Made by a program: the position numbers and the translations under genes. Of a stretch of 64,000 bases of DNA, positions 2,309 to 12,292 are shown piece after piece. Origin of the DNA: Candidatus Moraniibacteriota bacterium (GTDB lineage Bacteria > Patescibacteriota > Minisyncoccia > Moranbacterales > UBA1568); the NCBI GenBank assembly GCA_016699975.1, contig CP064994.1:65222-129221 (forward strand). The letters run 5' to 3'. The notes beneath the pieces are model-generated. The model did no database searches, was not told the DNA's origin, and saw only the letters and a list, made by a program, of their open reading frames with translations. The first letter of the stretch is position 1. Each line of letters starts with the position of its first letter.

Positions 2309-3028
2309 ATGTCGGGACATTCGCATTGGGCGGGCATTAAACATCGCAAGGGAATAAACGACGCGAAGCGCGCCAAAATTTTCACCAAACTCGCGCGCCC
2401 CATTACCATCGCCGCGAAGGGAGGGGGGAATCCAGAGACGAACTTCAAACTTCGCCTCGCGATCGATAAGGCACGCGAGTATAACATGCCGAAAGAAAAT
2501 ATCGATCGCGCGATCGAGCGCGGAACCGGTGAAGGAAAAGACGCCGCACGAATAGAAGAATTTGTCTACGAAGGATTCGGCCCGGGAAATACCGCCCTCC
2601 TCATCAAAGCTTCGACGGAAAACAAGAATCGCACCGTGAGCGAAGTAAAAAGCATTTTAACGAAGGGTGGCGGCAAATTCGTTCCCGCCGGCTCCGCATC
2701 CTTCCTCTTCCGAGAGGAGGGGGAAATCGTCCTCGACGTCTCGCCGGAAAACCGCGAATCAGCCGAGCTCGGCGCCATCGAAGCAGGCGCCGACGACACG
2801 GAGTACGATTCAGAGGAACACGCTTTATTTGTCTTTACTTCAGTTTCTTCGCTTCAGTCAGTCCGAGAAGCGCTCGAAAAAATACTCCCGCTCTCTTCGG
2901 TATCAATCGTCTTTCGCCCCAAAGAACGAGTCTCCATAAGCGAGGGTGACCGCGCAAAACTCGATCTTCTCCTTGAGACGCTCAATGATCACGACGATGT
3001 CGACACCGTTTACGACAATGCTGCATAA
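2309..3028 (+). CDS. yebC: YebC/PmpR family DNA-binding regulator
   Basis: The N-terminus MSGHSHWAGIKHRKG and the overall pattern match YebC, and the gene sits upstream of ruvC as in many bacteria. Confidence 0.9.
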   Translation: MSGHSHWAGIKHRKGINDAKRAKIFTKLARPITIAAKGGGNPETNFKLRLAIDKAREYNMPKENIDRAIERGTGEGKDAARIEEFVYEGFGPGNTALLIKASTENKNRTVSEVKSILTKGGGKFVPAGSASFLFREEGEIVLDVSPENRESAELGAIEAGADDTEYDSEEHALFVFTSVSSLQSVREALEKILPLSSVSIVFRPKERVSISEGDRAKLDLLLETLNDHDDVDTVYDNAA

Positions 3029-3097
3029 CAAATATCCTTCCTTTCCCTTGCCCCGAAAGAGAGAAATGAATATTTTTGACTCCCGAAAGAAAAATAT

Positions 3098-3587
3098 ATG
3101 CGCATCCTCGGTATTGATCCTGGAACGGCGACCGTAGGATGGGGCATTCTCGAAGGAGACGGGGATCGAATGGTCGCCCTTGCCTACGGACACATTTCAA
3201 CGAGTCCCACACTCCCGCTTCCAGAGCGGATAGGCGAAATAGCACGTGACCTTCGAACCCTGTGTCGCCTTCACCATCCCGAAGAAGCCTCCGTCGAAAA
3301 AATATTCTTTTCAAAATCAAAAGACCGTGATTGCGGTGAGTCAAGCAAGGGGCGCTATTCTCTTGACGCTCGAAGAGCTTGGCATTAGGCTTTTCGAATA
3401 CACGCCGCTTCAGATCAAGCAATCACTCACAGGATATGGTCGCGCCGACAAACGACAAATGCAGCTCATGGTAAAAAGCGTTTTAAAACTCCATGAGATT
3501 CCCCGCCCCGACGACACAGCGGACGCGCTTGCAATCGCCCTCTGCCACAGAAACAGTCGCGCTATGAACACCATCCTCGGAAAGTAG
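3098..3587 (+). CDS. ruvC: Holliday junction resolvase RuvC (reading frame broken by +1 indel near 3313-3316)
   Basis: ORF 3098..3388 gives the RuvC N-terminus (MRILGIDPGTATVGWGIL). The C-terminal two thirds (KTVIAVSQARG...ADALAIALCH) reads in the next frame from about 3318. Removing one A from the A4 run restores FFSNQKTVIAV, which matches RuvC. Confidence 0.8.
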
Positions 3588-3589
3588 CC

Positions 3590-4471
3590 GTGCTGCGAAA
3601 AAGTTTTTCAAAATGCGACGAAAGAAACGCCTCTTCCCAGAATGACTCCGAAACACACTCACTTCCCTCTCCGTCTCGCGCGATCGAAAAGTTGCGACGC
3701 TCTCGAAGGAAGCCGTTTGCGAAAGAAGAATATTCCGCATCAAAAACATTTTTAGCAGCCTTCTCGAAAAATTTTCATCTTCCTTTATTTTCACGTTCCG
3801 AATCTATAACCTTGTTTCTTATGACGCTGCATCCCCTCTTTCTTAATTTTGTCGCCCAAGGAGTACCAATCGACACGATCCGCTATATTCTCATGTTTCC
3901 CCTCATCGTGACTTTAGTCGCCTTCTTTCGACAAGTCGTGGGTATCAAAGCGTTTGGTATTTATACGCCATCAATCGTCACGTTCGCATTTCTTGCATTC
4001 GATCCGGGCGGCCTCAAATATGGAGTCGCCATTTTTGTGAGCATCATTCTAGTCGGCATGCTCTCGCGACTTCTCCTTCGCAGACTCCGGATTCTCTATT
4101 TGCCGCGCGTCGCAATTTCTCTCACAATCGTCGCACTCGCCATTCTCGCCATTCTCGTCGCGGGCGGTTCACTTCATCGAACCGGCCTCGCTTCCGTTTC
4201 CATCTTCCCTCTCCTCATCATGATCACCCTTGTCGAAAAATTCGTTGCGACGCAAATCGAAAAAGGGGATAAAGTCGCCCTTATGCTTGCGGGCGAGACC
4301 CTTTTCATTTCCCTGGTCGGCTACTTCCTCGCGCGCTCGTCGACTATCGCAGAGTATCTCCTCGCCTTCCCCTGGATCGTCCTCCTCACGATTCCCGTCA
4401 ACATCTTTCTCGGACGATGGAGAGGACTGCGGCTCTCTGAGCTCTTGCGTTTTTCAAAGTTGCTGAAATAG
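3590..4471 (+). CDS. multi-pass membrane protein, 7TM_transglut-like (partner of RimK-like ligases)
   Basis: Six to seven predicted TM helices with an FRQVVGIKAFGIYTPSI-type motif recalling 7TM_transglut (PF14402). It abuts a RimK-like ATP-grasp gene. The N-terminal 77 aa are hydrophilic, so the true start may be the Met at 3821. Confidence 0.55.
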   Translation: MLRKSFSKCDERNASSQNDSETHSLPSPSRAIEKLRRSRRKPFAKEEYSASKTFLAAFSKNFHLPLFSRSESITLFLMTLHPLFLNFVAQGVPIDTIRYILMFPLIVTLVAFFRQVVGIKAFGIYTPSIVTFAFLAFDPGGLKYGVAIFVSIILVGMLSRLLLRRLRILYLPRVAISLTIVALAILAILVAGGSLHRTGLASVSIFPLLIMITLVEKFVATQIEKGDKVALMLAGETLFISLVGYFLARSSTIAEYLLAFPWIVLLTIPVNIFLGRWRGLRLSELLRFSKLLK

Positions 4472-4511
4472 GAGTGGTGCCCTTCCGTTTTCATTTGTTG
4501 TTCTCTCGACT

Positions 4512-5939
4512 ATGATCCCCCTCCTCGAAGCATGGAAAAAAAGTCGCGATATTCTGGGCATGAATGCGCGGAATCTCGATTACCTTCGCCCATACAACAA
4601 AAAGCGCGCCAAGCGATTCGCAGACGACAAAATAGCCTGCAAGCGCCTCCTCGCAAAAAACGAATTGCCGGTTCCCCTCCTCATCGCGCGCATCAAAACA
4701 CTCGATGATCTTGAAAACTTCGACTGGTCAAAACTTCCCGAGAGCTTCGCCCTCAAACCGAATCATGGATTCGGCGGCGAAGGCATTCTCGTCGTATACG
4801 GAAAAAAGAAAAATGAAGAACACACCTGGATTAAAGCGGACGGCTCCCTCATCCGCGTCGAGGATCTGAAAACGCATATTCGAAATATTTTGGACGGTTC
4901 ATTCTCTCTCGCAAACATGCCAGACTCGGCATTTTTCGAAGAGCGCCTCAAGCTCCTCAAACTCTTCAAGCCCTATTCGTGGAAAGGGATCCCCGACATT
5001 CGTGTTATCGTCTTTAACCGCGTCCCGGTGATGGCGATGCTTCGCCTCCCCACCAAAGAGTCAGGCGGGAAAGCGAATCTTCAGCACGGAGCCCTTGGAC
5101 TCGGTATCGATATGGCAAACGGCACTACAACGAGTGCTGTTCAGGGGTTCGGCGGCTTCGCGCGCTCAATAGACTGTGTCCCCGGCACGCGTCTCGTTCT
5201 CTCGGGTATCCGCATTCCTTTCTGGAAAGAAATTCTCCGTCTTGCAGTCGAGGCCCAAAATATTTCGGGACTTGGCTACCTGGGCGCCGACATCGCGATC
5301 GACCGCGACCGCGGCCCGGTCTTCCTGGAATTAAATGCGCGACCCGGACTTTCCATTCAACTTGCCAACCTCGACGGACTCAAGGGTCGCCTAACGCGCG
5401 TTTCGGGACTCAAAGTGAAGACGGCGGAGAAGGGGGTGCGAATGGGCATGGATCTCTTCGGCGGTGAAATCGAGGAAGAGATCGAGGAAATCTCCGGCAA
5501 GAAAATTATCGGCACCGTAGAGAAAGTAAAACTCATCGGCAAGAACGGAAAAGAAATCGAAGTCGAAGCCAAAATAGACACCGGCGCCGACTCTACCTCC
5601 ATCGACACGGAGCTTGCGAGAGAGTTGGGGTTTGGGGAAGTTATGAATTTCTTTGAAACTATTCCAAAGCCGGAAAATACAGAGAATCGCTCAACTCTTA
5701 GCGCACTCTCTGCGGAGTACGATCAAAAATATAAGCACGCTCATCCAGATCTTTCCGGCGTCGTTTTTGTATATGCTCCGAACGGCTTCACAATGAGACC
5801 AAAGATTCTCATCTCATTCTTTCTCCATGGTGCTGAGGTATCTTCGAGGGTAAGCATCATTGAAAGATCCCGCATGCAATACCCTATAATAATAGGACGG
5901 AGAGATCTCAAGAAATTTCTCATCGATTCAAATAAATAA
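4512..5939 (+). CDS. RimK-like ATP-grasp ligase (alpha-L-glutamate ligase-related) fused to C-terminal retropepsin-like PF05618-type domain
   Basis: The N-terminal MIPLLEAWKKSRDILGMNARNLDYLRPYN... matches the RLAN/TIGR02291 pattern, and ATP-grasp motifs are present (KPNHGFGGEGI, ELNARPG). The C-terminal domain carries DTGA (KIDTGADSTS) and a terminal YPIIIGRRDLKKFLID, typical of the RimK-associated retropepsin-like putative protease. Confidence 0.75.
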   Translation: MIPLLEAWKKSRDILGMNARNLDYLRPYNKKRAKRFADDKIACKRLLAKNELPVPLLIARIKTLDDLENFDWSKLPESFALKPNHGFGGEGILVVYGKKKNEEHTWIKADGSLIRVEDLKTHIRNILDGSFSLANMPDSAFFEERLKLLKLFKPYSWKGIPDIRVIVFNRVPVMAMLRLPTKESGGKANLQHGALGLGIDMANGTTTSAVQGFGGFARSIDCVPGTRLVLSGIRIPFWKEILRLAVEAQNISGLGYLGADIAIDRDRGPVFLELNARPGLSIQLANLDGLKGRLTRVSGLKVKTAEKGVRMGMDLFGGEIEEEIEEISGKKIIGTVEKVKLIGKNGKEIEVEAKIDTGADSTSIDTELARELGFGEVMNFFETIPKPENTENRSTLSALSAEYDQKYKHAHPDLSGVVFVYAPNGFTMRPKILISFFLHGAEVSSRVSIIERSRMQYPIIIGRRDLKKFLIDSNK

Positions 5940-5985
5940 GGGGCTTGAGAGTGCCTCTTATTCGAATTTAGCGGAAAGGTATTTT

Positions 5986-6915
5986 ATGAAAGTCTTATTT
6001 CTTCTTGGCCATCAATCAGCCAATAACCATTCAAAAAAATTCCAGAGTAAATTCAGAGATTTTTTTCAATACGCAAGCGAAAGAACTTCTATAAAATTTT
6101 ATATATCAAATATTGAAGACTATGATACGAAACAAAAGCTGTTCTCTCATGCATTTGTAAGAAAATGGAATTCGTGGGACAAAGAGTTCCTTGTAAAGCC
6201 AGATATTATTTACGATAAAACATCGTACTTCCTTTCTCAGAAAAATTTAATGGAAATAAAAGAGGATATTTCTCAAAATTTTCGCTTCCTCAACCCATTG
6301 GAATTCAATAGAATTCTTACTGATAAGTGGGAGACGTATACTGTCATTCCGGATATACATCCGAAAACCATTCTCTTTCAAGAGAACGATGACTCGAAAA
6401 AAATCTTGGATATATCATCTTCATTAGTTGTGATAAAGCCACGATACGGATTCGGTGGAAAAGGCGTCACTGTTTCAACAAAAGAAAATTTCAAGCCAAT
6501 AAAAACTCCTTTCATCGTGCAGGAATTTATCGAAACTAGTGCCGGCATACCAAACATAACAAAGGGTCGCCATGACCTTCGAATATTCCTCAAAAATGAA
6601 ACTCCATTCTACTCAATAATACGCTCCCCTCAAAAAGACCCTTATATCGCAAACATAAATTTCGGTGGCGCATTGAAAGTAGTGCCGCTCGAGAAGATTC
6701 CGAGATCAGCATTCAGAGTCATCAACACCATCAGCAAAACCTTTTCTCGTTTCCCTAAGAAGCTCTACTCAATCGATCTATTTTTTGATAGGAATCAAAA
6801 TCCTTGGGTGGTAGAATGTAATTCTCGTCCAGGAATCATCCTTCATAAGAGTGAGCTCCCTTATCGTGAATTCTATTACGATCACCTTCTTGATTTTTTT
6901 CAACAATCTCTATGA
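5986..6915 (+). CDS. second ATP-grasp family ligase (RimK/cyanophycin-synthetase-like)
   Basis: Motifs VVIKPRYGFGGKGV and VVECNSRPG are ATP-grasp hallmarks. The gene is AT-rich compared with its neighbours. An AGG-rich RBS precedes the ATG. Confidence 0.65.
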   Translation: MKVLFLLGHQSANNHSKKFQSKFRDFFQYASERTSIKFYISNIEDYDTKQKLFSHAFVRKWNSWDKEFLVKPDIIYDKTSYFLSQKNLMEIKEDISQNFRFLNPLEFNRILTDKWETYTVIPDIHPKTILFQENDDSKKILDISSSLVVIKPRYGFGGKGVTVSTKENFKPIKTPFIVQEFIETSAGIPNITKGRHDLRIFLKNETPFYSIIRSPQKDPYIANINFGGALKVVPLEKIPRSAFRVINTISKTFSRFPKKLYSIDLFFDRNQNPWVVECNSRPGIILHKSELPYREFYYDHLLDFFQQSL

Positions 6916-8183
6916 AGATAATAACTATTACTGGGACAAAGGGGAAAACCACCATAACAAGAGCTCTCAGTGCCGTGCTTCATCGATTTGGGGAAACGAC
7001 TCTTCGAGTAGATACGGATGGCTACTACATCAATGAAAAACAAGAAGGAACTCTCGAAGAGAGCAAAAATCTCTATGGCCTTGTTCCTACCGTCTCACCC
7101 GGGAAGTACCTCCTCTCTATGAAAAGATACTATCCAGATTTTGTTGCTATCCTTGAGGCAGCCCTTGGAAGCGGCGGAAAATCAGGAAGAGGCTATGGAC
7201 TTCATACTATAGGGATATTTTCCAACGTCCTCGAAGATCATATGGGTATAGGTAAAATAAGAACAAGGTTGGATATAGCAAAAAGAAAAAATTTTATTTT
7301 TTCAGGTATTGATGTGGGCGGCTATGCCATCTTCAATGCAGATGATCGACTTGTCTGTTCGCAATTAAAACAAATCCCCGATTTCCGTTCTGTCCATCTT
7401 GTTCCTTGCGGTATCTCAAATCGCTTTTTCGACATTGAAAATCACCTTCAAAATGGAGGAAAAGCAGTTACTATCGTCGATGATTCCATCGTCATTCGAG
7501 CAAGAGAAGGCGACCAAAAAATTCTTTCAGTAAAAGATGTTTCATGGACATTCAATGGAAAGTATAGACCCTCCGTAGAAAATCTTCTTTTTATCGTTGG
7601 GGGACTCTATGCCTTCTTCGAGGAAAAGATCCCTCAGAGAGCTTTGCAAATTCTCAAAGAGTATCACCTCAACAGAGACGGGGGGAGACTATCACTTTTC
7701 GAAAATAAAGATGGCATCAAAGTCTTAATAGATTTCGCGCACGAAAAATACTCACTTTCAGAAATTGCAAAACTCGCACATAAACTCAAGAAAAGTAAGA
7801 AGAATAAGACTATCGGGATTTTGCGGTTAGCGCCAGACAGAACCGATAAAATGATTTTCGAAACCGGAAAATTCATTGCCCCTTCTTTTGATCATTTGAT
7901 AATTTATGACAAAATAGATGGCGTTCATAAAATGAAATATATCGGTAAAAAAACAAATATCGTACGAAACATTGGTGAGGTTTCTGACATTTTCCTGAAA
8001 GGAGCTCTGAGTGCAAAGAGAAAAAATATGGTAGAGAAAATACTCCTTGAAGAAAACGCTGTAAGGAAGGCTATCAAAATAGCCTGCCCAGGAGATGTCA
8101 TAATTTATATATGCAATGACGATCATAAAAAAAGTATCACTTATATGCAAAAATATCTCCATGCTAGTAGAAGAAATTCGTAA
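6912..8183 (+). CDS. Mur ligase family protein resembling the C-terminal domain of cyanophycin synthetase CphA
   Basis: The N-terminal P-loop ITGTKGKTTITRAL matches the Mur-ligase GTNGKTT motif, and ILEAALGSGG...NVLEDHMG matches the CphA/MurE central-domain pattern. Its start overlaps the stop of the preceding ATP-grasp gene, implying translational coupling. Confidence 0.7.
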   Translation: MKIITITGTKGKTTITRALSAVLHRFGETTLRVDTDGYYINEKQEGTLEESKNLYGLVPTVSPGKYLLSMKRYYPDFVAILEAALGSGGKSGRGYGLHTIGIFSNVLEDHMGIGKIRTRLDIAKRKNFIFSGIDVGGYAIFNADDRLVCSQLKQIPDFRSVHLVPCGISNRFFDIENHLQNGGKAVTIVDDSIVIRAREGDQKILSVKDVSWTFNGKYRPSVENLLFIVGGLYAFFEEKIPQRALQILKEYHLNRDGGRLSLFENKDGIKVLIDFAHEKYSLSEIAKLAHKLKKSKKNKTIGILRLAPDRTDKMIFETGKFIAPSFDHLIIYDKIDGVHKMKYIGKKTNIVRNIGEVSDIFLKGALSAKRKNMVEKILLEENAVRKAIKIACPGDVIIYICNDDHKKSITYMQKYLHASRRNS

Positions 8184-8226
8184 GATCCTTATTACAGAAA
8201 GCTTTTGAATCTTTTATAGACTATTC

Positions 8227-8255
8227 TTGAACCCCCGCTTCCCTCGCGGTACAAT
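8227..8255 (+). promoter_or_regulatory. sigma70-like promoter TTGAAC-N17-TACAAT upstream of PBP gene
   Basis: TTGAAC (8227-8232) is followed by a 17-nt spacer and TACAAT (8250-8255), about 80 nt upstream of the PBP start. Confidence 0.4.
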
Positions 8256-8335
8256 GCCGGTACTTCCCAGAAAACACTCTTCTCAAAAGAAAGGGTAAAA
8301 GATATTCGAGAATACACACCCTCGTATTTTCTCCT

Positions 8336-11185
8336 ATGGATCACCTGAAAACGGTACTGAGAGAAGCTCGTGCTGCGTGGCGGCGGGAGCGAAATAATCC
8401 TCATTCGTTTGCATCCACGATAGCGACTTCGGCACCCGGAAGATTCTTCTCAAAGATTTTTGCACGACAAAAAATCGGCACGACATCCTTCATTCGCGGA
8501 CCCCTCGGCACTATGAATGTTTCTTCGAATACTCTTTCACGAACACCATCGCCGCGCGACCCCAAACCCCGCGCGGGATTTTGGAAATGGGTACTTCGAA
8601 TCGCAATTGGAATTTTTGTGGGAGGCTTCCTCGCGGTCGTCGGCGTTTTCGCCTATTTTGCAAAAGATCTGCCCAGCCCTGGAAAAGTGAACAGCCGATT
8701 TATCGCCGAGTCGACCAAAATTTTCGACCGCACCGGGACACACCTCCTCTACGAAGTTCACGGCGAGGAAAAACGAACGATTATTCCCTTTTCTGAAATG
8801 CCACAGGTAATCCGCGCCGCCACCATCACTTTGGAAGACCGGGATTTCTATAATCACTATGGTATCAAGCTCGATTCCATCCTCCGTGCCCTCTTCAAGG
8901 ACTTTGTCAAAGGCGGATCAAGGCAGGGCGGCTCCACAATTACGCAGCAGTTTGTAAAAAACTCCCTCCTCACGCCAGAGAAAACACTGACCCGAAAGAT
9001 AAAGGAAGCGATTCTGTCGATAGAGATGGAACAAAAATTTTCGAAAGATGAAATTCTCGCGATGTATTTGAACGAGATTCCCTACGGCGCCAATGCTTAT
9101 GGAATCGAAGCGGCTTCGCAAACTTTTTTCGGAAAGAACGCAAAAAATCTCACTGTTGATGAAGCGGCCCTTCTCGCCGTCCTCCCGAACGCTCCCACAT
9201 ACTATTCTCCGTACGGCTCCCACCTCGACGAACTGAAAGCGAGACAAAAAAATGCGCTTACCCAAATGGCCGCTCTCGGCTATATCACCAAAGAGGCCGC
9301 TGAAGAAGCAAAACAAGTGGAGACCCTCGACAAACTCGTGCCACAACGAGAAGCGATCGCTGCGCCGCACTTCGTCATGTATGTGAAGGAATATCTTGCC
9401 AGGCGCTACGGCGACGAAGAAATCGAGCAAGGCGGGCTGCGAGTCATTACCACTCTCGACTGGGACAAACAGCAAGCCGCAGAAAAAGCGGTTTCGGAAG
9501 GAGCCGAGAAAAATCTTCGCTACAATGCGGAAAATGCCGCGCTCGTTGCGATCGATCCGAAGACCGGACAAATTCTCGCTATGGTTGGTTCGAAAAATTA
9601 CTTCGATACCAAAATAGACGGGCAGGTGAACGTCACCATTCGCGACCGCCAGCCGGGATCCTCCTTTAAGCCTTACGTCTATCTCGCTGCGTTCACCAAG
9701 GGCTATGTGCCCGAGACAATTCTTTATGATGTGCCCACCGAATTTCCGACCGATGACGGAAAAAATTACGCGCCACAAAACTACGATGGAACATTTCATG
9801 GACCTGTCTCGCTCGCAAAAGCGCTCGGCGGATCCCTCAATGTCCCGGCTGTCAAAACGCTCTACTTAGTAGGAGTGAATGATGCCATCGAACTCTCAAA
9901 GAGTCTCGGCATCACCACTCTCACGGAGCCAAAGCGCTATGGCCTTTCTCTCGTTTTGGGAGGAGGCGACGTCAAACTCCTCGATCATGTAAGTGCCTAC
10001 GCAACGCTCGCAACGGGTGGCATACGACGGGAAAAAACTGCCATTCTTCGTATCGAAAACTCGAAGGGCGAAGTGCGGGAAGAATATACTCAGTCGCCTG
10101 GAGAGCGCGTCGTTGGCGAAAAATTTGTCGCCATGCTCGATTCCGTTCTCTCCGAGAACGGAAACCGAGCGTGGATCTTCGGGGAAAATAATCCTCTGCG
10201 GTTCAACAATCGAGCCGTCGTTGCCAAGACCGGTACTACCAACCTCTTTAAAGACGCCTGGACGGTTGGCTATACCCCTTCCCTGGCGGCAGGCGTCTGG
10301 GTAGGAAACAATGATGCCTCTCCCATGAAGCTCGGGGCCGACGGCTCCTATGTCGCCGCTCCCATTTGGCGAGCATTTATGGACAAGGCCCTCGAGAACA
10401 CCGGGACAGAAGAGTTTCCGAAATACCGTCCCGAAGAAGAAATCGCACCGCGCGACGAAAACGGCAACGTCAAAAAAGAAGAGCAAAAAGATGAGAATGC
10501 CGAACAAGCTCCTTCATCCGACACGACATCCAAAGGCGTTCCTGATCCCTTCGAAACCGTCTTCCCGAAAATTGAAAAGCCGCTTCTCGGTGGCTATATG
10601 GAAAAACAAGAAGCCCTCAAAGTCTGTCGCATCCCAGGGAAGGATGATGAATACTGTCTTCCGAGCAAATATTGCCCCGAGAGCGAAGAAGTGAAGCGGG
10701 ACTTCGTAAGCGCAAACGATATTTTGGCCTATGTGGATCGTGACGATCCAAGAGGATCGATCCCAGAAAAACCCGAGCGCGACCCGCAATACAAAGCCTG
10801 GCAAAAAGCTGCGAAAGATTGGTACCAAAAGGATCGCAAAAGAATTTTCTCCGCCCCGCCCGAAAAAGAATGTTCCGAAGAAGATTTCGGCTCCAAGTTC
10901 GATCCCGAGATCTCCCTCTCTGTTCCCGATGAAACAGACTCGTCTTCACTCTCTATTTCCGCAAAAGGAAAAGCGCCTTATGGCGCCGAATCACTCGAAA
11001 TATTTGTCGACGGCGAAAGAATCGCCTCGGACGGAGGAGCTTCACTCTCCACCGATTACTCCATTCCTGATGGAAAGCGAGGGAGCACTCTCTCGATCGA
11101 AGCACGACTCAAGGATAAACTCGGAAACGAAGCGAAAGATACGAAAGATGTCCGCACGAAAGCCCCTGAAACAACGACTCCGTAA
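8336..11185 (+). CDS. ponA: class A penicillin-binding protein (transglycosylase/transpeptidase) with long C-terminal extension
   Basis: A TM anchor is followed by the glycosyltransferase-51 motifs (EDRDFYNHYGI, RQGGSTITQQ) and the transpeptidase motifs (SSFKP, SLN, KTGT). The last ~250 aa are an additional Cys-containing, Ig-like region. An alternative start is the Met at 8513. Confidence 0.9.
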   Translation: MDHLKTVLREARAAWRRERNNPHSFASTIATSAPGRFFSKIFARQKIGTTSFIRGPLGTMNVSSNTLSRTPSPRDPKPRAGFWKWVLRIAIGIFVGGFLAVVGVFAYFAKDLPSPGKVNSRFIAESTKIFDRTGTHLLYEVHGEEKRTIIPFSEMPQVIRAATITLEDRDFYNHYGIKLDSILRALFKDFVKGGSRQGGSTITQQFVKNSLLTPEKTLTRKIKEAILSIEMEQKFSKDEILAMYLNEIPYGANAYGIEAASQTFFGKNAKNLTVDEAALLAVLPNAPTYYSPYGSHLDELKARQKNALTQMAALGYITKEAAEEAKQVETLDKLVPQREAIAAPHFVMYVKEYLARRYGDEEIEQGGLRVITTLDWDKQQAAEKAVSEGAEKNLRYNAENAALVAIDPKTGQILAMVGSKNYFDTKIDGQVNVTIRDRQPGSSFKPYVYLAAFTKGYVPETILYDVPTEFPTDDGKNYAPQNYDGTFHGPVSLAKALGGSLNVPAVKTLYLVGVNDAIELSKSLGITTLTEPKRYGLSLVLGGGDVKLLDHVSAYATLATGGIRREKTAILRIENSKGEVREEYTQSPGERVVGEKFVAMLDSVLSENGNRAWIFGENNPLRFNNRAVVAKTGTTNLFKDAWTVGYTPSLAAGVWVGNNDASPMKLGADGSYVAAPIWRAFMDKALENTGTEEFPKYRPEEEIAPRDENGNVKKEEQKDENAEQAPSSDTTSKGVPDPFETVFPKIEKPLLGGYMEKQEALKVCRIPGKDDEYCLPSKYCPESEEVKRDFVSANDILAYVDRDDPRGSIPEKPERDPQYKAWQKAAKDWYQKDRKRIFSAPPEKECSEEDFGSKFDPEISLSVPDETDSSSLSISAKGKAPYGAESLEIFVDGERIASDGGASLSTDYSIPDGKRGSTLSIEARLKDKLGNEAKDTKDVRTKAPETTTP

Positions 11186-11698: not shown

Positions 11699-12292
11699 CT
11701 ATTGCTTCCGGAGGCTTTTAATCTCTTCTGTGAGCGACTGAACGAGGATCTCTATCTTCTCCAATTTTCGATCCGTCTCGGCTTTCTCATCCTTCTCTTT
11801 CCTTTCTTCTTCGCCGATATCTTCCACATCCTCCTGAATGCCATCCACGTCCTTCTGAATATCCTCGACGTCGTCCCCGATTTCTTCCACTTCTTTCTGA
11901 ATTCCCTCGACATCTTCGCCGATTTCTTCGACGTTTTCCTGAATCCCTTCAATATCTTCGGAAATGTCTTCTACATCTTCGCGAATATCTTCGATATGTT
12001 CGTGCACCTCGGTAATGTCTTTTGCCTGACGATTCACAGTCATCTGAATAAAGATCGCGAGATAAATCGCCTCGAGCGAGACGAGTGTTGTGAGGAGAAG
12101 GAGAATTTGATCGAAAGAGAATCCGAAAAACGAAAGCGTAAAGATGCCCACAAAAAGAAACGTGTGCACAAGAAGCGACATCGGAGACCCAATAGAACGC
12201 GCAAACCGCTCCGCGCCTCGCTCAAGTGGCGAAGTTGCAAAGGGGGAGCGCTGCTCTTCTGGAAGTTTCGGTTTATCGAGTGGGTTCGACAT
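11699..12292 (-). CDS. DUF1003 family membrane protein with acidic tandem-repeat C-terminal tail
   Basis: The two-TM core FDQILLLLTTLVSLEAIYLAIFIQMTVNRQAKD matches the DUF1003 signature (FDPYPF..LNL.LS.EAA..AP.ILMSQNRQ). The tail consists of about seven imperfect 8-aa repeats (EDVEDIxx). Confidence 0.6.
   Translation of the reverse strand: MSNPLDKPKLPEEQRSPFATSPLERGAERFARSIGSPMSLLVHTFLFVGIFTLSFFGFSFDQILLLLTTLVSLEAIYLAIFIQMTVNRQAKDITEVHEHIEDIREDVEDISEDIEGIQENVEEIGEDVEGIQKEVEEIGDDVEDIQKDVDGIQEDVEDIGEEERKEKDEKAETDRKLEKIEILVQSLTEEIKSLRKQ
11806..12000 (-). repeat. 24-nt period imperfect tandem repeats (coding, acidic octapeptide repeats)
   Basis: Repeating units of the form gatatcttccacatcctcctgaat... 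encode E/D-V-E-D-I repeats within the DUF1003 gene. Confidence 0.5.

What the first reader, a model, noticed from the sequence alone, without database searches (positions are those of the whole stretch)
4512..5939. ATP-grasp ligase fused to RimK-associated retropepsin-like domain
The C-terminal ~150 aa carry the aspartyl-protease-like DTGA signature (EVEAKIDTGADSTSID) and the characteristic terminal YPIIIGRRDLKKFLID motif of the PF05618 family. That family is normally a stand-alone partner of RimK-type ligases. Fusing ligase and putative peptidase into one polypeptide implies an obligate functional coupling, such as product trimming or processing, and is an uncommon architecture.
Basis: partly seen in the sequence, partly recalled or inferred. 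Interest (0 to 1): 0.6.

Follow-up and report, generated by a model that had tools for sequence, protein, structure and literature searches.

The report
Fused peptide ligase and retropepsin-like protease
This gene really does encode one protein that joins an ATP-dependent peptide ligase to a retrovirus-type aspartic protease, but the fusion is the standard form in hundreds of ultra-small Patescibacteria species and is a compact variant of the recently described Rlo/Rim "add and trim glutamate tails" systems.

Summary
Confirmed. ORF 4512..5939(+) encodes 475 aa. Residues 20-298 are an RloC-type ATP-grasp ligase (PF14397, E 7e-64; 42% identical to a Legionella RloC). Residues 335-470 are an RloA/RimB-type retropepsin-like domain: invariant DTGA, an IIGR motif, PDB matches to RloA, and a confident model whose Foldseek hits are all retropepsins.

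The fusion is not an indel artefact. All 80 species-representative loci examined carry both domains in one continuous ORF.

It is not rare in its lineage. It is syntenic across Moraniibacteriota and occurs in other Patescibacteria, sometimes extended by MATCAP or YdjC domains.

A RloB-like membrane protein with about seven predicted helices and no transglutaminase domain lies directly upstream. RimK-like ligases usually follow downstream.

Most likely this is a cytoplasmic, membrane-associated writer/eraser of acidic peptide tails or polymers. The protease keeps the residues RloA uses to bind poly-glutamate. The actual substrate is unknown.

A protease-ligase hybrid (RimBK) is already published, but with the opposite domain order and a different ligase subfamily. 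I rate this a new variant of a known kind, of moderate interest.

The parts
3821..4471 (+). RloB-like membrane protein, about 7 TM helices by hydropathy, with no N-terminal transglutaminase domain. The mechanical ORF starts at GTG 3590. The conserved start is ATG 3821 (M78), giving 216 aa.
   Evidence: PF14402 7TM_transglut, E 2e-29. Residues 95-293 are 29% identical to Legionella RloB residues 310-505, E 6e-24. Seven hydrophobic segments span residues 100-275, followed by a basic C-terminal tail. Most orthologue matches start near q78, and the L039 orthologue is 218 aa starting at the equivalent Met. The gene lies directly upstream on the same strand in 78 of 80 loci.
4512..5939 (+). Fusion gene, 475 aa: RloC-type ATP-grasp ligase, conserved linker, and RloA/RimB-type retropepsin-like peptidase.
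   Evidence: The identical protein is in NCBI as 'MAG: ATP-dependent zinc protease [Candidatus Moraniibacteriota bacterium]' on a 1.05 Mb contig.
4569..5405 (+). ATP-grasp ligase domain, residues 20-298.
   Evidence: PF14397, 216 bits. TIGR02291, 276 bits. RimK-family models match only weakly. 42% identity to a stand-alone 'alpha-L-glutamate ligase-like protein' in a canonical rloABC operon, E 2e-71. Best PDB folds for the full model are RimK 5zct/5zk6/4iwx/7qys, then ArgX/LysX and the CphA1 ATP-grasp (G) domain. Invariant D260, E273, N275 and R277 sit in the ELNARPG motif.
5454..5513 (+). Conserved acidic linker, residues 315-334: LFGGEIEEEIEEISGKKIIG.
   Evidence: Nearly invariant in 120 orthologues. 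pLDDT is below 50 for residues 318-334 in the full-length model. It is absent from the stand-alone RloC tail. Acidity is lost in distant fusions, while the hydrophobic i/i+4/i+7 pattern is kept.
5514..5921 (+). Retropepsin-like aspartic peptidase domain, residues 335-470.
   Evidence: PDB sequence hits are RloA 9g58, RloA2 9g59 and Lpg0085 2pma only. AF2 model pLDDT 92.8. Foldseek top hits are Ddi1 RVP, Lpg0085, RloA, foamy virus, HTLV and EIAV proteases, and Rickettsia APRc. 27% identity to Legionella RloA, E 1e-7.
5577..5588 (+). Catalytic motif D356-T-G-A359.
   Evidence: Invariant in 120 of 120 orthologues. It aligns with the DTGA of RloA 9g58. K354, R429 and R452 align with K46, R114 and R137 of RloA, the residues reported to coordinate poly-Glu.
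5986..6915 (+). Second ATP-grasp ligase, 309 aa, RimK/GSH-synthetase-like. Probably an accessory ligase of the same cluster.
   Evidence: Pfam RimK, GSH-S_ATP and YheCD hits. A homologue lies downstream of the fusion in 44 of 80 loci. 93 of 124 downstream ORFs in 73 loci are RimK-like ATP-grasp proteins. GC is 0.36 against about 0.52 in neighbouring genes.
6912..8183 (+). Mur-ligase-type protein, 423 aa, resembling the Mur-ligase-like (M) domain of cyanophycin synthetase. It overlaps the preceding stop (ATGA). This is a variable accessory gene.
   Evidence: TIGR02068 positions 481-860, E 9e-56. PDB CphA 7wac, E 7e-24. Found in only 1 of 80 related loci, L018. GC 0.387.

Best explanation
The window carries a compact, Patescibacteria-type version of the Rlo system. 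Its core is a two-gene cassette: a RloB-like 7TM membrane protein without the extracytoplasmic transglutaminase domain, followed by one polypeptide that fuses a RloC-type ATP-grasp amidoligase to a RloA/RimB-type retropepsin-like endopeptidase.

Shown here:
- the homology of all three modules to rloA, rloB and rloC;
- the retropepsin fold with an intact DTGA;
- conservation of the ATP-grasp Mg/ATP motif;
- the absence of a signal peptide or TM segment in the fusion;
- strict conservation of the cassette.

Inferred mechanism:
- The ligase domain uses ATP to add alpha-linked acidic residues, most likely glutamate as RimK does, to a carboxylate acceptor. The acceptor could be a protein or peptide C-terminus, or a growing free chain.
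- The protease domain must pair with a second copy to form the two-Asp active site. It cuts the acidic chain, setting tail length or releasing oligomers, as RimB does for RimK products and as RloA does with poly-Glu in vitro.
- Fusion fixes 1:1 stoichiometry and places both activities in the cytoplasm, docked at the cytoplasmic face of the 7TM partner. This suits cells without a periplasm, which would explain why the secreted protease and the periplasmic transglutaminase domain of Pseudomonas are missing.
- The RimK-like ligases usually encoded just downstream probably extend or diversify the same product.

Pairwise homology to a canonical rloA-rloB-rloC operon (L081):
- Ligase: 42% identity, E 2e-71.
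- Protease: 27% identity, E 1e-7.
- 7TM protein: 29% identity, E 6e-24.

Active-site and substrate residues:
- The catalytic D356 is invariant in 120 orthologues. So are R429 and R452, and K354 is nearly so; these three are the counterparts of RloA's poly-Glu-binding R114, R137 and K46.
- ATP-grasp residues D260, E273 and N275 are also invariant.

Conservation and localisation:
- One continuous ORF in 80 of 80 species loci, with the 7TM gene adjacent upstream in 78 of 80. The two exceptions are cut by contig ends.
- The fusion has no hydrophobic segment (maximum KD19 score 1.4) and no signal peptide.
- The 7TM C-terminal tail is strongly basic, so it is probably cytoplasmic.

Other fusions linking the same modules:
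- 7TM::ATP-grasp fusion on a Halobacterium plasmid.
- ATP-grasp + retropepsin + MATCAP carboxypeptidase, and ATP-grasp + retropepsin + YdjC, in other Patescibacteria.
- 93 of 124 ORFs just downstream are RimK-like ligases.

Published biology:
- RimB cleaves poly-Glu tails and stimulates RimK, and a RimBK hybrid is proteolytically active (PMC11957791).
- RloA cleaves stretches of 8 or more Glu, and loss of rloB or rloC suppresses the phenotypes of mutants lacking all three rloA genes (PMC12239564).
Against: - No biochemical activity is known for any RloC-type ligase. Its amino-acid specificity and acceptor are unknown even in Pseudomonas.
- The purified RimBK hybrid did not glutamylate RpsF.
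- The PF05618, TIGR02291 and RloA/RloB NCBIfam scores for the window proteins are below the curated cut-offs, so these are divergent relatives rather than equivalogs.
- The protease core carries a helical middle region where RloA has strands, and TM-scores are only 0.45-0.5. Specificity may therefore differ.
- Dimerisation was not modelled.
- Neighbours such as GT4 glycosyltransferases, YdjC, a Mur-type ligase and PBP1A leave room for a cell-envelope product other than poly-Glu.
Confidence: 0.6

Rival explanations
1. Self-processing polyprotein. The retropepsin-like domain cuts the conserved, disordered acidic linker (EIEEEIEE) in cis or in trans. This would release a free protease dimer and a ligase with a Glu-rich C-terminus, which could itself prime glutamylation, much as retroviral proteases excise themselves.
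For: - The linker is nearly invariant in 120 orthologues and is predicted to be disordered.
- RimB and RloA cleave internal Glu-rich stretches.
- The stand-alone RloC tail lacks this segment.
Against: - The linker has at most three consecutive Glu, whereas RimB needs about 5 and RloA at least 8 contiguous Glu, and bulky interruptions abolish cleavage.
- In distant fusions the acidity is lost but the hydrophobic i/i+4/i+7 spacing is kept (P0164, P0203, P0238). That pattern suggests a packing helix rather than a cleavage site.
- Triple fusions continue beyond the protease with no comparable acidic linker.
Confidence: 0.1
2. The protease domain acts mainly as a regulatory or substrate-binding module of the ligase, either as an allosteric activator or as a chain-length ruler, and not as a bulk 'eraser'. 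RimB stimulates RimK ATPase and poly-Glu synthesis in a comparable way.
For: [quoted passage not shown] Permanent tethering would make a futile synthesis-degradation cycle costly, which favours a controlled role.
Against: The DTGA motif and the substrate-coordinating K and R residues are invariant, which argues that catalysis is retained. The isolated RimB domain of RimBK is fully proteolytic. The two roles are not mutually exclusive.
Confidence: 0.15
3. The cluster builds or edits a cell-envelope component other than poly-glutamate. Candidates are a peptide side chain on a glycopolymer or peptidoglycan-like precursor, or a cyanophycin-like polymer. In that case the protease would process a different substrate.
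For: - PF14397 is named for an association with sugar transfer.
- Downstream genes include several ATP-grasp ligases, GT4 glycosyltransferases, YdjC deacetylase-like proteins, a CphA M-domain-like Mur ligase in this window, and PBP1A.
- Pseudomonas rlo mutants show cell-shape and beta-lactam phenotypes.
- Disruption of a putative inactive-transglutaminase/7TM gene of the RloB type in a Tn screen changes membrane-vesicle output.
Against: The residues that bind poly-Glu in RloA are conserved here. The ligase fold is closest to RimK. The glycosyltransferase, YdjC and Mur-ligase neighbours are variable rather than core.
Confidence: 0.15
4. The fusion is an assembly or indel artefact that removed a stop codon between two genes.
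For: This assembly does contain at least one homopolymer frameshift, in ruvC only about 1.2 kb upstream. Noisy long-read assemblies fragment the orthologous gene.
Against: 80 of 80 independent species loci, and 120 of 120 top protein clusters from many projects and sequencing platforms, have the same single ORF. The junction is conserved at the protein level.
Confidence: 0.01

Closest known systems
rloABC operon of Pseudomonas aeruginosa and other Gammaproteobacteria (Lormand et al. 2025, mBio, PMC12239564); canonical example examined here: Legionella adelaidensis plasmid, L081
   Same: All three protein modules are homologous: the RloC-type ATP-grasp (42% identity), the RloA-type retropepsin-like peptidase with DTGA and the K/R residues that bind poly-Glu, and the RloB 7TM module. 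The genes are adjacent and on the same strand.
   Different: - The protease is fused to the C-terminus of the ligase, has no signal peptide and is therefore cytoplasmic. RloA is secreted and disulfide-stapled.
- The RloB-like protein lacks the roughly 300-aa periplasmic inactive transglutaminase domain.
- Gene order is B-(C::A) instead of A-B-C.
- The host is a Patescibacteria genome, whereas the paper reports RloB as 96% proteobacterial.
- Extra RimK-like ligases lie downstream.
- Scores fall below the NCBIfam RloA/RloB cut-offs.
RimB/RimK and the RimBK hybrid (Little et al. 2025, J Biol Chem, PMC11957791)
   Same: A cytoplasmic retropepsin-like peptidase is functionally and physically coupled to an ATP-grasp alpha-L-glutamate ligase. 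In RimBK the two are one polypeptide and the protease domain is active. The ligase fold here is closest to RimK among solved structures.
   Different: - In RimBK the protease is N-terminal to the ligase; here it is C-terminal.
- The ligase here belongs to PF14397/TIGR02291, not the RimK family (TIGR00768 scores 41 bits against a cut-off of 143).
- RimBK has no reported 7TM partner.
- RimBK is found mainly in Flavobacteriales and Rhodobacterales. This points to an independent fusion event.
Eukaryotic tubulin tail code: TTL/TTLL ATP-grasp ligases with MATCAP/CCP peptidases
   Same: The logic is the same: an ATP-grasp enzyme adds C-terminal residues and a dedicated peptidase removes them. Relatives of this protein carry a MATCAP (PF08014) domain fused after the retropepsin domain, and some downstream ligases hit the TTL Pfam model.
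   Different: There is no tubulin and the substrate is unknown. The window protein itself has no MATCAP domain. The resemblance is one of analogy and domain family, not a demonstrated shared pathway.

Membership tests
PF05618 / RloA-RimB retropepsin-like aspartic peptidases | Catalytic D-T/S-G-A motif | tested here: met
   DTGA at residues 356-359. It is invariant in 120 orthologues and aligns to the DTGA of RloA 9g58.
PF05618 / RloA-RimB retropepsin-like aspartic peptidases | Retropepsin (single-lobe acid protease) fold | tested here: met
   Domain model pLDDT 92.8. All top Foldseek PDB hits are retropepsin-like (Ddi1, Lpg0085, RloA, retroviral proteases, APRc) with probability 1.00 and TM-scores of 0.45-0.5. 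The middle region is helical, unlike RloA.
PF05618 / RloA-RimB retropepsin-like aspartic peptidases | Score above the Pfam gathering threshold | tested here: not met
   24.3 bits against a cut-off of 27 for the window sequence. Most orthologues carry a precomputed PF05618 hit, and a profile of the domain finds only PF05618 structures in the PDB.
PF05618 / RloA-RimB retropepsin-like aspartic peptidases | Basic residues that coordinate poly-Glu (RloA K46, R114, R137) | tested here: met
   K354, R429 and R452 occupy the aligned positions with identical spacing (D+66 and +23). They are invariant or nearly invariant.
PF05618 / RloA-RimB retropepsin-like aspartic peptidases | Homodimer forming the Asp dyad; cleavage of poly-Glu | not testable with these tools
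   Only monomer models could be made, and no biochemistry was possible.
RloA (secreted Rlo peptidases; NCBIfam NF052262-4) | N-terminal signal peptide or periplasmic location; equivalog score | tested here: not met
   The domain is internal to a cytoplasmic fusion with no hydrophobic N-terminus. RloA3 scores 33 bits against a cut-off of 210, and RloA1 scores 28 against 280.
RloC / TIGR02291 alpha-L-glutamate ligase-like; PF14397 | ATP-grasp domain of this subfamily | tested here: met
   PF14397 scores 216 bits against a cut-off of 31.4. 42% identity to the ligase of a canonical rlo operon, E 2e-71. The TIGR02291 score of 276 is below its trusted cut-off of 314, so this is a divergent member and not an equivalog.
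RimK proper (TIGR00768) | Family-level sequence score | tested here: not met
   41 bits against a cut-off of 143. There is no phmmer hit to any PDB RimK, only fold-level similarity.
RloB (inactive transglutaminase fused to 7TM) | 7TM_transglut membrane module | tested here: met
   PF14402 scores 103 bits against a cut-off of 25. 29% identity to RloB residues 310-505. Seven hydrophobic segments.
RloB (inactive transglutaminase fused to 7TM) | N-terminal inactive transglutaminase domain | tested here: not met
   There is no match to RloB residues 1-300. The protein is 216-293 aa against 508 aa for RloB, and NF052267 scores 87 bits against a cut-off of 900.
RimBK hybrid (Little et al. 2025) | RimB domain at the N-terminus of a RimK-family ligase | tested here: not met
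   The domain order is reversed and the ligase subfamily differs.

The most novel reading that the evidence does not exclude
The Patescibacteria cassette would be a minimal, all-cytoplasmic, membrane-docked 'peptide-tail code' machine. Several ATP-grasp writers and one to two fused erasers (retropepsin, with or without MATCAP) would act on a so far unknown acceptor at a 7TM scaffold.

The nearly invariant acidic linker would work as a built-in pseudo-substrate or self-cleavage site that gates the protease. Because the cassette sits in a fixed core-genome position in very small genomes, it would be an essential envelope or osmotic homeostasis device. It would also be the simplest system in which to solve what Rlo proteins actually do.
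Probability: 0.15. Interest if true: 0.7.

Novelty: new variant of a known kind. Interest (0 to 1): 0.42.

Why it matters
The biochemical function of the Rlo system is still unknown, although it affects osmotic tolerance, beta-lactam resistance, biofilm formation and cell shape in Pseudomonas.

The fusions found here are independent genomic evidence that the three Rlo modules act on one another or on one product: ligase to protease, 7TM to ligase, and ligase to protease to MATCAP. In this lineage everything happens on the cytoplasmic side.

The finding also extends Rlo-like systems well beyond Gammaproteobacteria, into Patescibacteria, where the cassette is core and syntenic.

A single soluble 54 kDa protein carrying both activities would be a convenient object for working out substrate and product.

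Tried and rejected
- Indel artefact. I took this seriously because ruvC in the same window is frameshifted. I rejected it after finding 80 of 80 continuous ORFs.
- Naturally split versions in Moranbacteria. The short PF05618-only proteins on long contigs (P0286, P0278) turned out to be fragments of genes shattered by frameshifts in noisy assemblies. The 7TM, ruvC and ATP-grasp genes in those contigs are fragmented too.
- A second homologue search with the protease domain alone returned only fragments. It was useful for the alignment but not for architecture.
- Iyer et al. 2009 (PMC3268129), which first described these amidoligase neighbourhoods, is not held in the library.
- The promoter and terminator scan of 3000-8400 gave counts no different from shuffles, so operon boundaries could not be set.
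- phmmer of the ATP-grasp domain and of the downstream 309-aa ligase against the PDB found nothing. Only fold comparison links the fusion's ATP-grasp domain to RimK.
- The first attempt to scan all downstream ORFs exceeded the residue limit. I repeated it with ORFs of 460 aa or fewer.
- The literature search found no paper describing this fusion in Patescibacteria.
Full report
**Observation.** ATG 4512 is the first possible start after an in-frame stop. Both quoted peptides are present, and DTGA is encoded at 5577-5588.
- Pfam assigns residues 20-298 to ATPgrasp_ST (PF14397, E 7e-64). Residues 333-470 match Zn_protease (PF05618), but only at 24.3 bits, just under the gathering score of 27.
- NCBIfam gives TIGR02291 'alpha-L-glutamate ligase-like' at E 3.5e-82 for the N-terminal part. 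The C-terminal part gives weak hits to the RloA1-3 'retropepsin-like aspartic peptidase' models.

**Is the C-terminal domain really a PF05618-type retropepsin?** Yes, on four lines of evidence.
- phmmer of residues 321-475 against all PDB sequences finds RloA from P. fluorescens (9g58, E 7e-6), Legionella Lpg0085 (2pma) and P. aeruginosa RloA2 (9g59), with DTGA aligned.
- A profile built from 74 relatives finds only these three structures (2e-8, 1e-6, 3e-5).
- An AlphaFold2 model of the domain is confident, with pLDDT 92.8. Its Foldseek matches in the PDB are retropepsin-like proteins: Ddi1 RVP domains, Lpg0085, RloA, foamy virus, HTLV and EIAV proteases, and Rickettsia APRc. The top-ranked matches all have probability 1.00.
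- TM-scores are modest (0.45-0.5) because the stretch between the DTGA strand and the flap hairpin is predicted helical here (H366-371, H375-381, H393-407) rather than beta as in RloA.
- The terminal IIGRRDL corresponds to the G-R-(D/N) helix motif of retroviral proteases. That last point rests on my own knowledge of HIV-1 PR (...IIGRNLL...).

**Substrate-binding residues.** Lormand et al. showed that RloA K46, R114 and R137 coordinate poly-glutamate and are needed for activity. Using the 9g58 alignment, their counterparts here are K354, R429 and R452, with identical spacing from the catalytic Asp. In 120 orthologues D356, R429 and R452 are invariant and K354 is nearly so.

**Is the fusion real?** The concern was legitimate. 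ruvC, 1.2 kb upstream, is split over two frames by one extra T in a T-run at about 3308-3311. Removing that base restores a 162-aa RuvC, which matches 70 related loci in a single alignment. The fusion ORF, however, is not an artefact.
- The 120 best protein clusters (64-82% identity, from NCBI, JGI, ENA and Logan assemblies) are all the fused protein, nearly all 438-481 aa; the shortest lack only the N-terminus. All of them have D[TS]GA in the C-terminal part.
- A scan of GTDB species-representative genomes found at least 596 relatives. All of the best 80 loci carry both domains in one continuous frame.
- The junction LFGGEIEEEIEE(I/L)SG(K/R)(K/R)(I/V)IG is itself nearly invariant.
- Short 'stand-alone' relatives on long contigs are fragments of genes shattered by frameshifts in noisy assemblies.

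**Distribution.**
- The exact protein is deposited as 'MAG: ATP-dependent zinc protease [Candidatus Moraniibacteriota bacterium]' on a 1.05 Mb contig. Moraniibacteriota belongs to the Parcubacteria/Patescibacteria groups.
- An exhaustive search with the protease domain found 473 clusters (at 50% identity) with E of 1e-3 or better.
- These include fused proteins of 460-500 aa labelled Parcubacteria, Kerfeldbacteria and Patescibacteria, and genuine stand-alone forms of about 160 aa. One of the stand-alone forms sits next to RimK genes.
- They also include longer fusions: ATP-grasp + retropepsin + MATCAP (PF08014) of about 790-916 aa, and ATP-grasp + retropepsin + YdjC.
- The architecture is therefore common in this superphylum, not rare.

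**Context.**
- The 80 loci are strongly syntenic: RuvB...YebC-RuvC-7TM-fusion-...-PBP1A.
- The gene directly upstream (78 of 80 loci; the two exceptions are cut by contig ends) is a PF14402 '7TM_transglut' protein.
- In the window it is best read from ATG 3821, giving 216 aa. It has seven hydrophobic segments and a strongly basic C-terminal tail.
- It aligns with residues 310-505 of a 508-aa Legionella RloB (E 6e-24) and lacks the transglutaminase domain entirely.
- That Legionella plasmid shows the canonical operon of RloA (152 aa), RloB (508 aa) and RloC (314 aa). The window fusion is 42% identical to its RloC (E 2e-71) and 27% identical to its RloA (E 1e-7).
- A Halobacterium plasmid encodes a 584-aa 7TM::ATP-grasp fusion. 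This ties the membrane module physically to the ligase and puts the 7TM C-terminus in the cytoplasm.
- Downstream of the fusion, 93 of 124 ORFs of 460 aa or fewer in 73 loci are RimK-like ATP-grasp ligases. The others include GT4 glycosyltransferases, YdjC and MATCAP.
- One related locus has PKD-PKD-7TM, the triple fusion, three further ATP-grasps and a second MATCAP.
- In the window the downstream genes are a 309-aa RimK/GSH-synthetase-like ligase and a 423-aa Mur-type ligase resembling the M domain of cyanophycin synthetase. Both have low GC (0.36-0.39 against about 0.52), and the Mur-type gene is shared by only one of the 80 loci.

**Mechanism.** The homologies, intact catalytic motifs, cytoplasmic location and conserved pairing with the 7TM protein are shown. 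The rest is inferred from published work.
- RimK polymerises alpha-L-Glu onto RpsF or as free chains. RimB cuts poly-Glu and stimulates RimK. A RimB-RimK hybrid is proteolytically active.
- RloA cleaves runs of 8 or more Glu, and deleting rloB or rloC suppresses the rloA triple mutant.
- I therefore read the window protein as a self-contained writer/eraser: an ATP-grasp that adds acidic residues to a carboxylate acceptor, and a dimerising aspartic endopeptidase that trims or releases the chain. It would work at the cytoplasmic face of the 7TM partner.
- In cells without a periplasm this replaces the secreted-protease arrangement of Pseudomonas.
- The full-length model has pLDDT 80 with a disordered linker at residues 318-334. 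The ligase domain's nearest solved folds are RimK, ArgX/LysX and the CphA1 G domain.

**The linker.** Its conservation exceeds what a passive tether needs, and it is acidic. That invites a self-cleavage or pseudo-substrate idea, but three points argue against it.
- The linker has only three consecutive Glu.
- Distant fusions lose the charge while keeping the hydrophobic periodicity.
- Published specificities require 5-8 contiguous Glu.
I keep this as a low-probability rival.

**Comparison and novelty.**
- The closest systems are rloABC and RimB/RimK/RimBK.
- This is not a RimBK. The domain order is reversed, the ligase subfamily differs, and there is a 7TM partner.
- It is not an equivalog of RloA, RloB or RloC by NCBIfam thresholds.
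- It is best described as a RloC::RloA fusion paired with a transglutaminase-less RloB.
- Literature searches found no description of it. Public annotation labels it generically.

**Verdict.** The claim of rarity is not. The feature is a real, conserved, undescribed variant of a recently characterised kind, of moderate interest mainly as a tractable handle on Rlo function.

Noticed in passing
window 3098..3587 (+): ruvC is split over two reading frames (ORFs 3098..3388 and 3246..3587). Deleting one T from the T-run at about 3308-3311 restores an intact 162-aa RuvC that matches 70 related loci in a single alignment. This is either a homopolymer sequencing error in this assembly or a genuine pseudogene.
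   Followed up: yes
window 5986..8183 (+): Two overlapping genes form a low-GC island (GC 0.36 and 0.39 against about 0.52 in neighbours): a 309-aa RimK/GSH-synthetase-like ATP-grasp and a 423-aa Mur-type ligase. The Mur-type ligase matches cyanophycin synthetase positions 481-860 (E 9e-56; PDB 7wac, 7e-24). Together they look like a split cyanophycin-synthetase-like pair. The Mur-type gene occurs in only 1 of 80 related loci (L018).
   Followed up: partly
L083 4167..5921 (Halobacterium sp. DL1 plasmid CP007061.1): An unannotated 584-aa ORF fuses a 7TM_transglut-like membrane domain to the N-terminus of a RloC-type ATP-grasp ligase. This is a different fusion of the same system, found in an archaeon.
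   Followed up: partly
P0128, P0164, P0203, P0204, P0136, P0238; L087 1870..10678: Other Patescibacteria carry ATP-grasp + retropepsin + MATCAP (PF08014) triple fusions, an ATP-grasp + retropepsin + YdjC fusion, and an 854-aa form with an unassigned C-terminal half. L087 also has a PKD-PKD-7TM protein, three more ATP-grasp genes and a second MATCAP gene in the same syntenic slot.
   Followed up: partly
window 5472..5939 versus 4512..5471: Within the fusion gene the protease-coding part has clearly lower GC (0.44, GC3 0.49) than the ligase part (0.54, GC3 0.62). It is also less conserved among orthologues (41-77% against 61-82% identity).
   Followed up: no
window 11699..12292 (-): A 197-aa protein with a hydrophobic N-terminal half and a long acidic repeat region (EDIxEDVE-type units). 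Among the 80 related loci it was found only in the closest one (L001).
   Followed up: no
loci L003, L005, L013, L038 and others; NZ_AP026896.1: Many contigs with typical Moranbacteria synteny are titled 'uncultured Bdellovibrionales', 'Bathyarchaeia archaeon' or 'Fimivivens'. These are probably mislabelled bins. A 4.9 Mb Aeromonas caviae record is filed as a plasmid in PLSDB.
   Followed up: no
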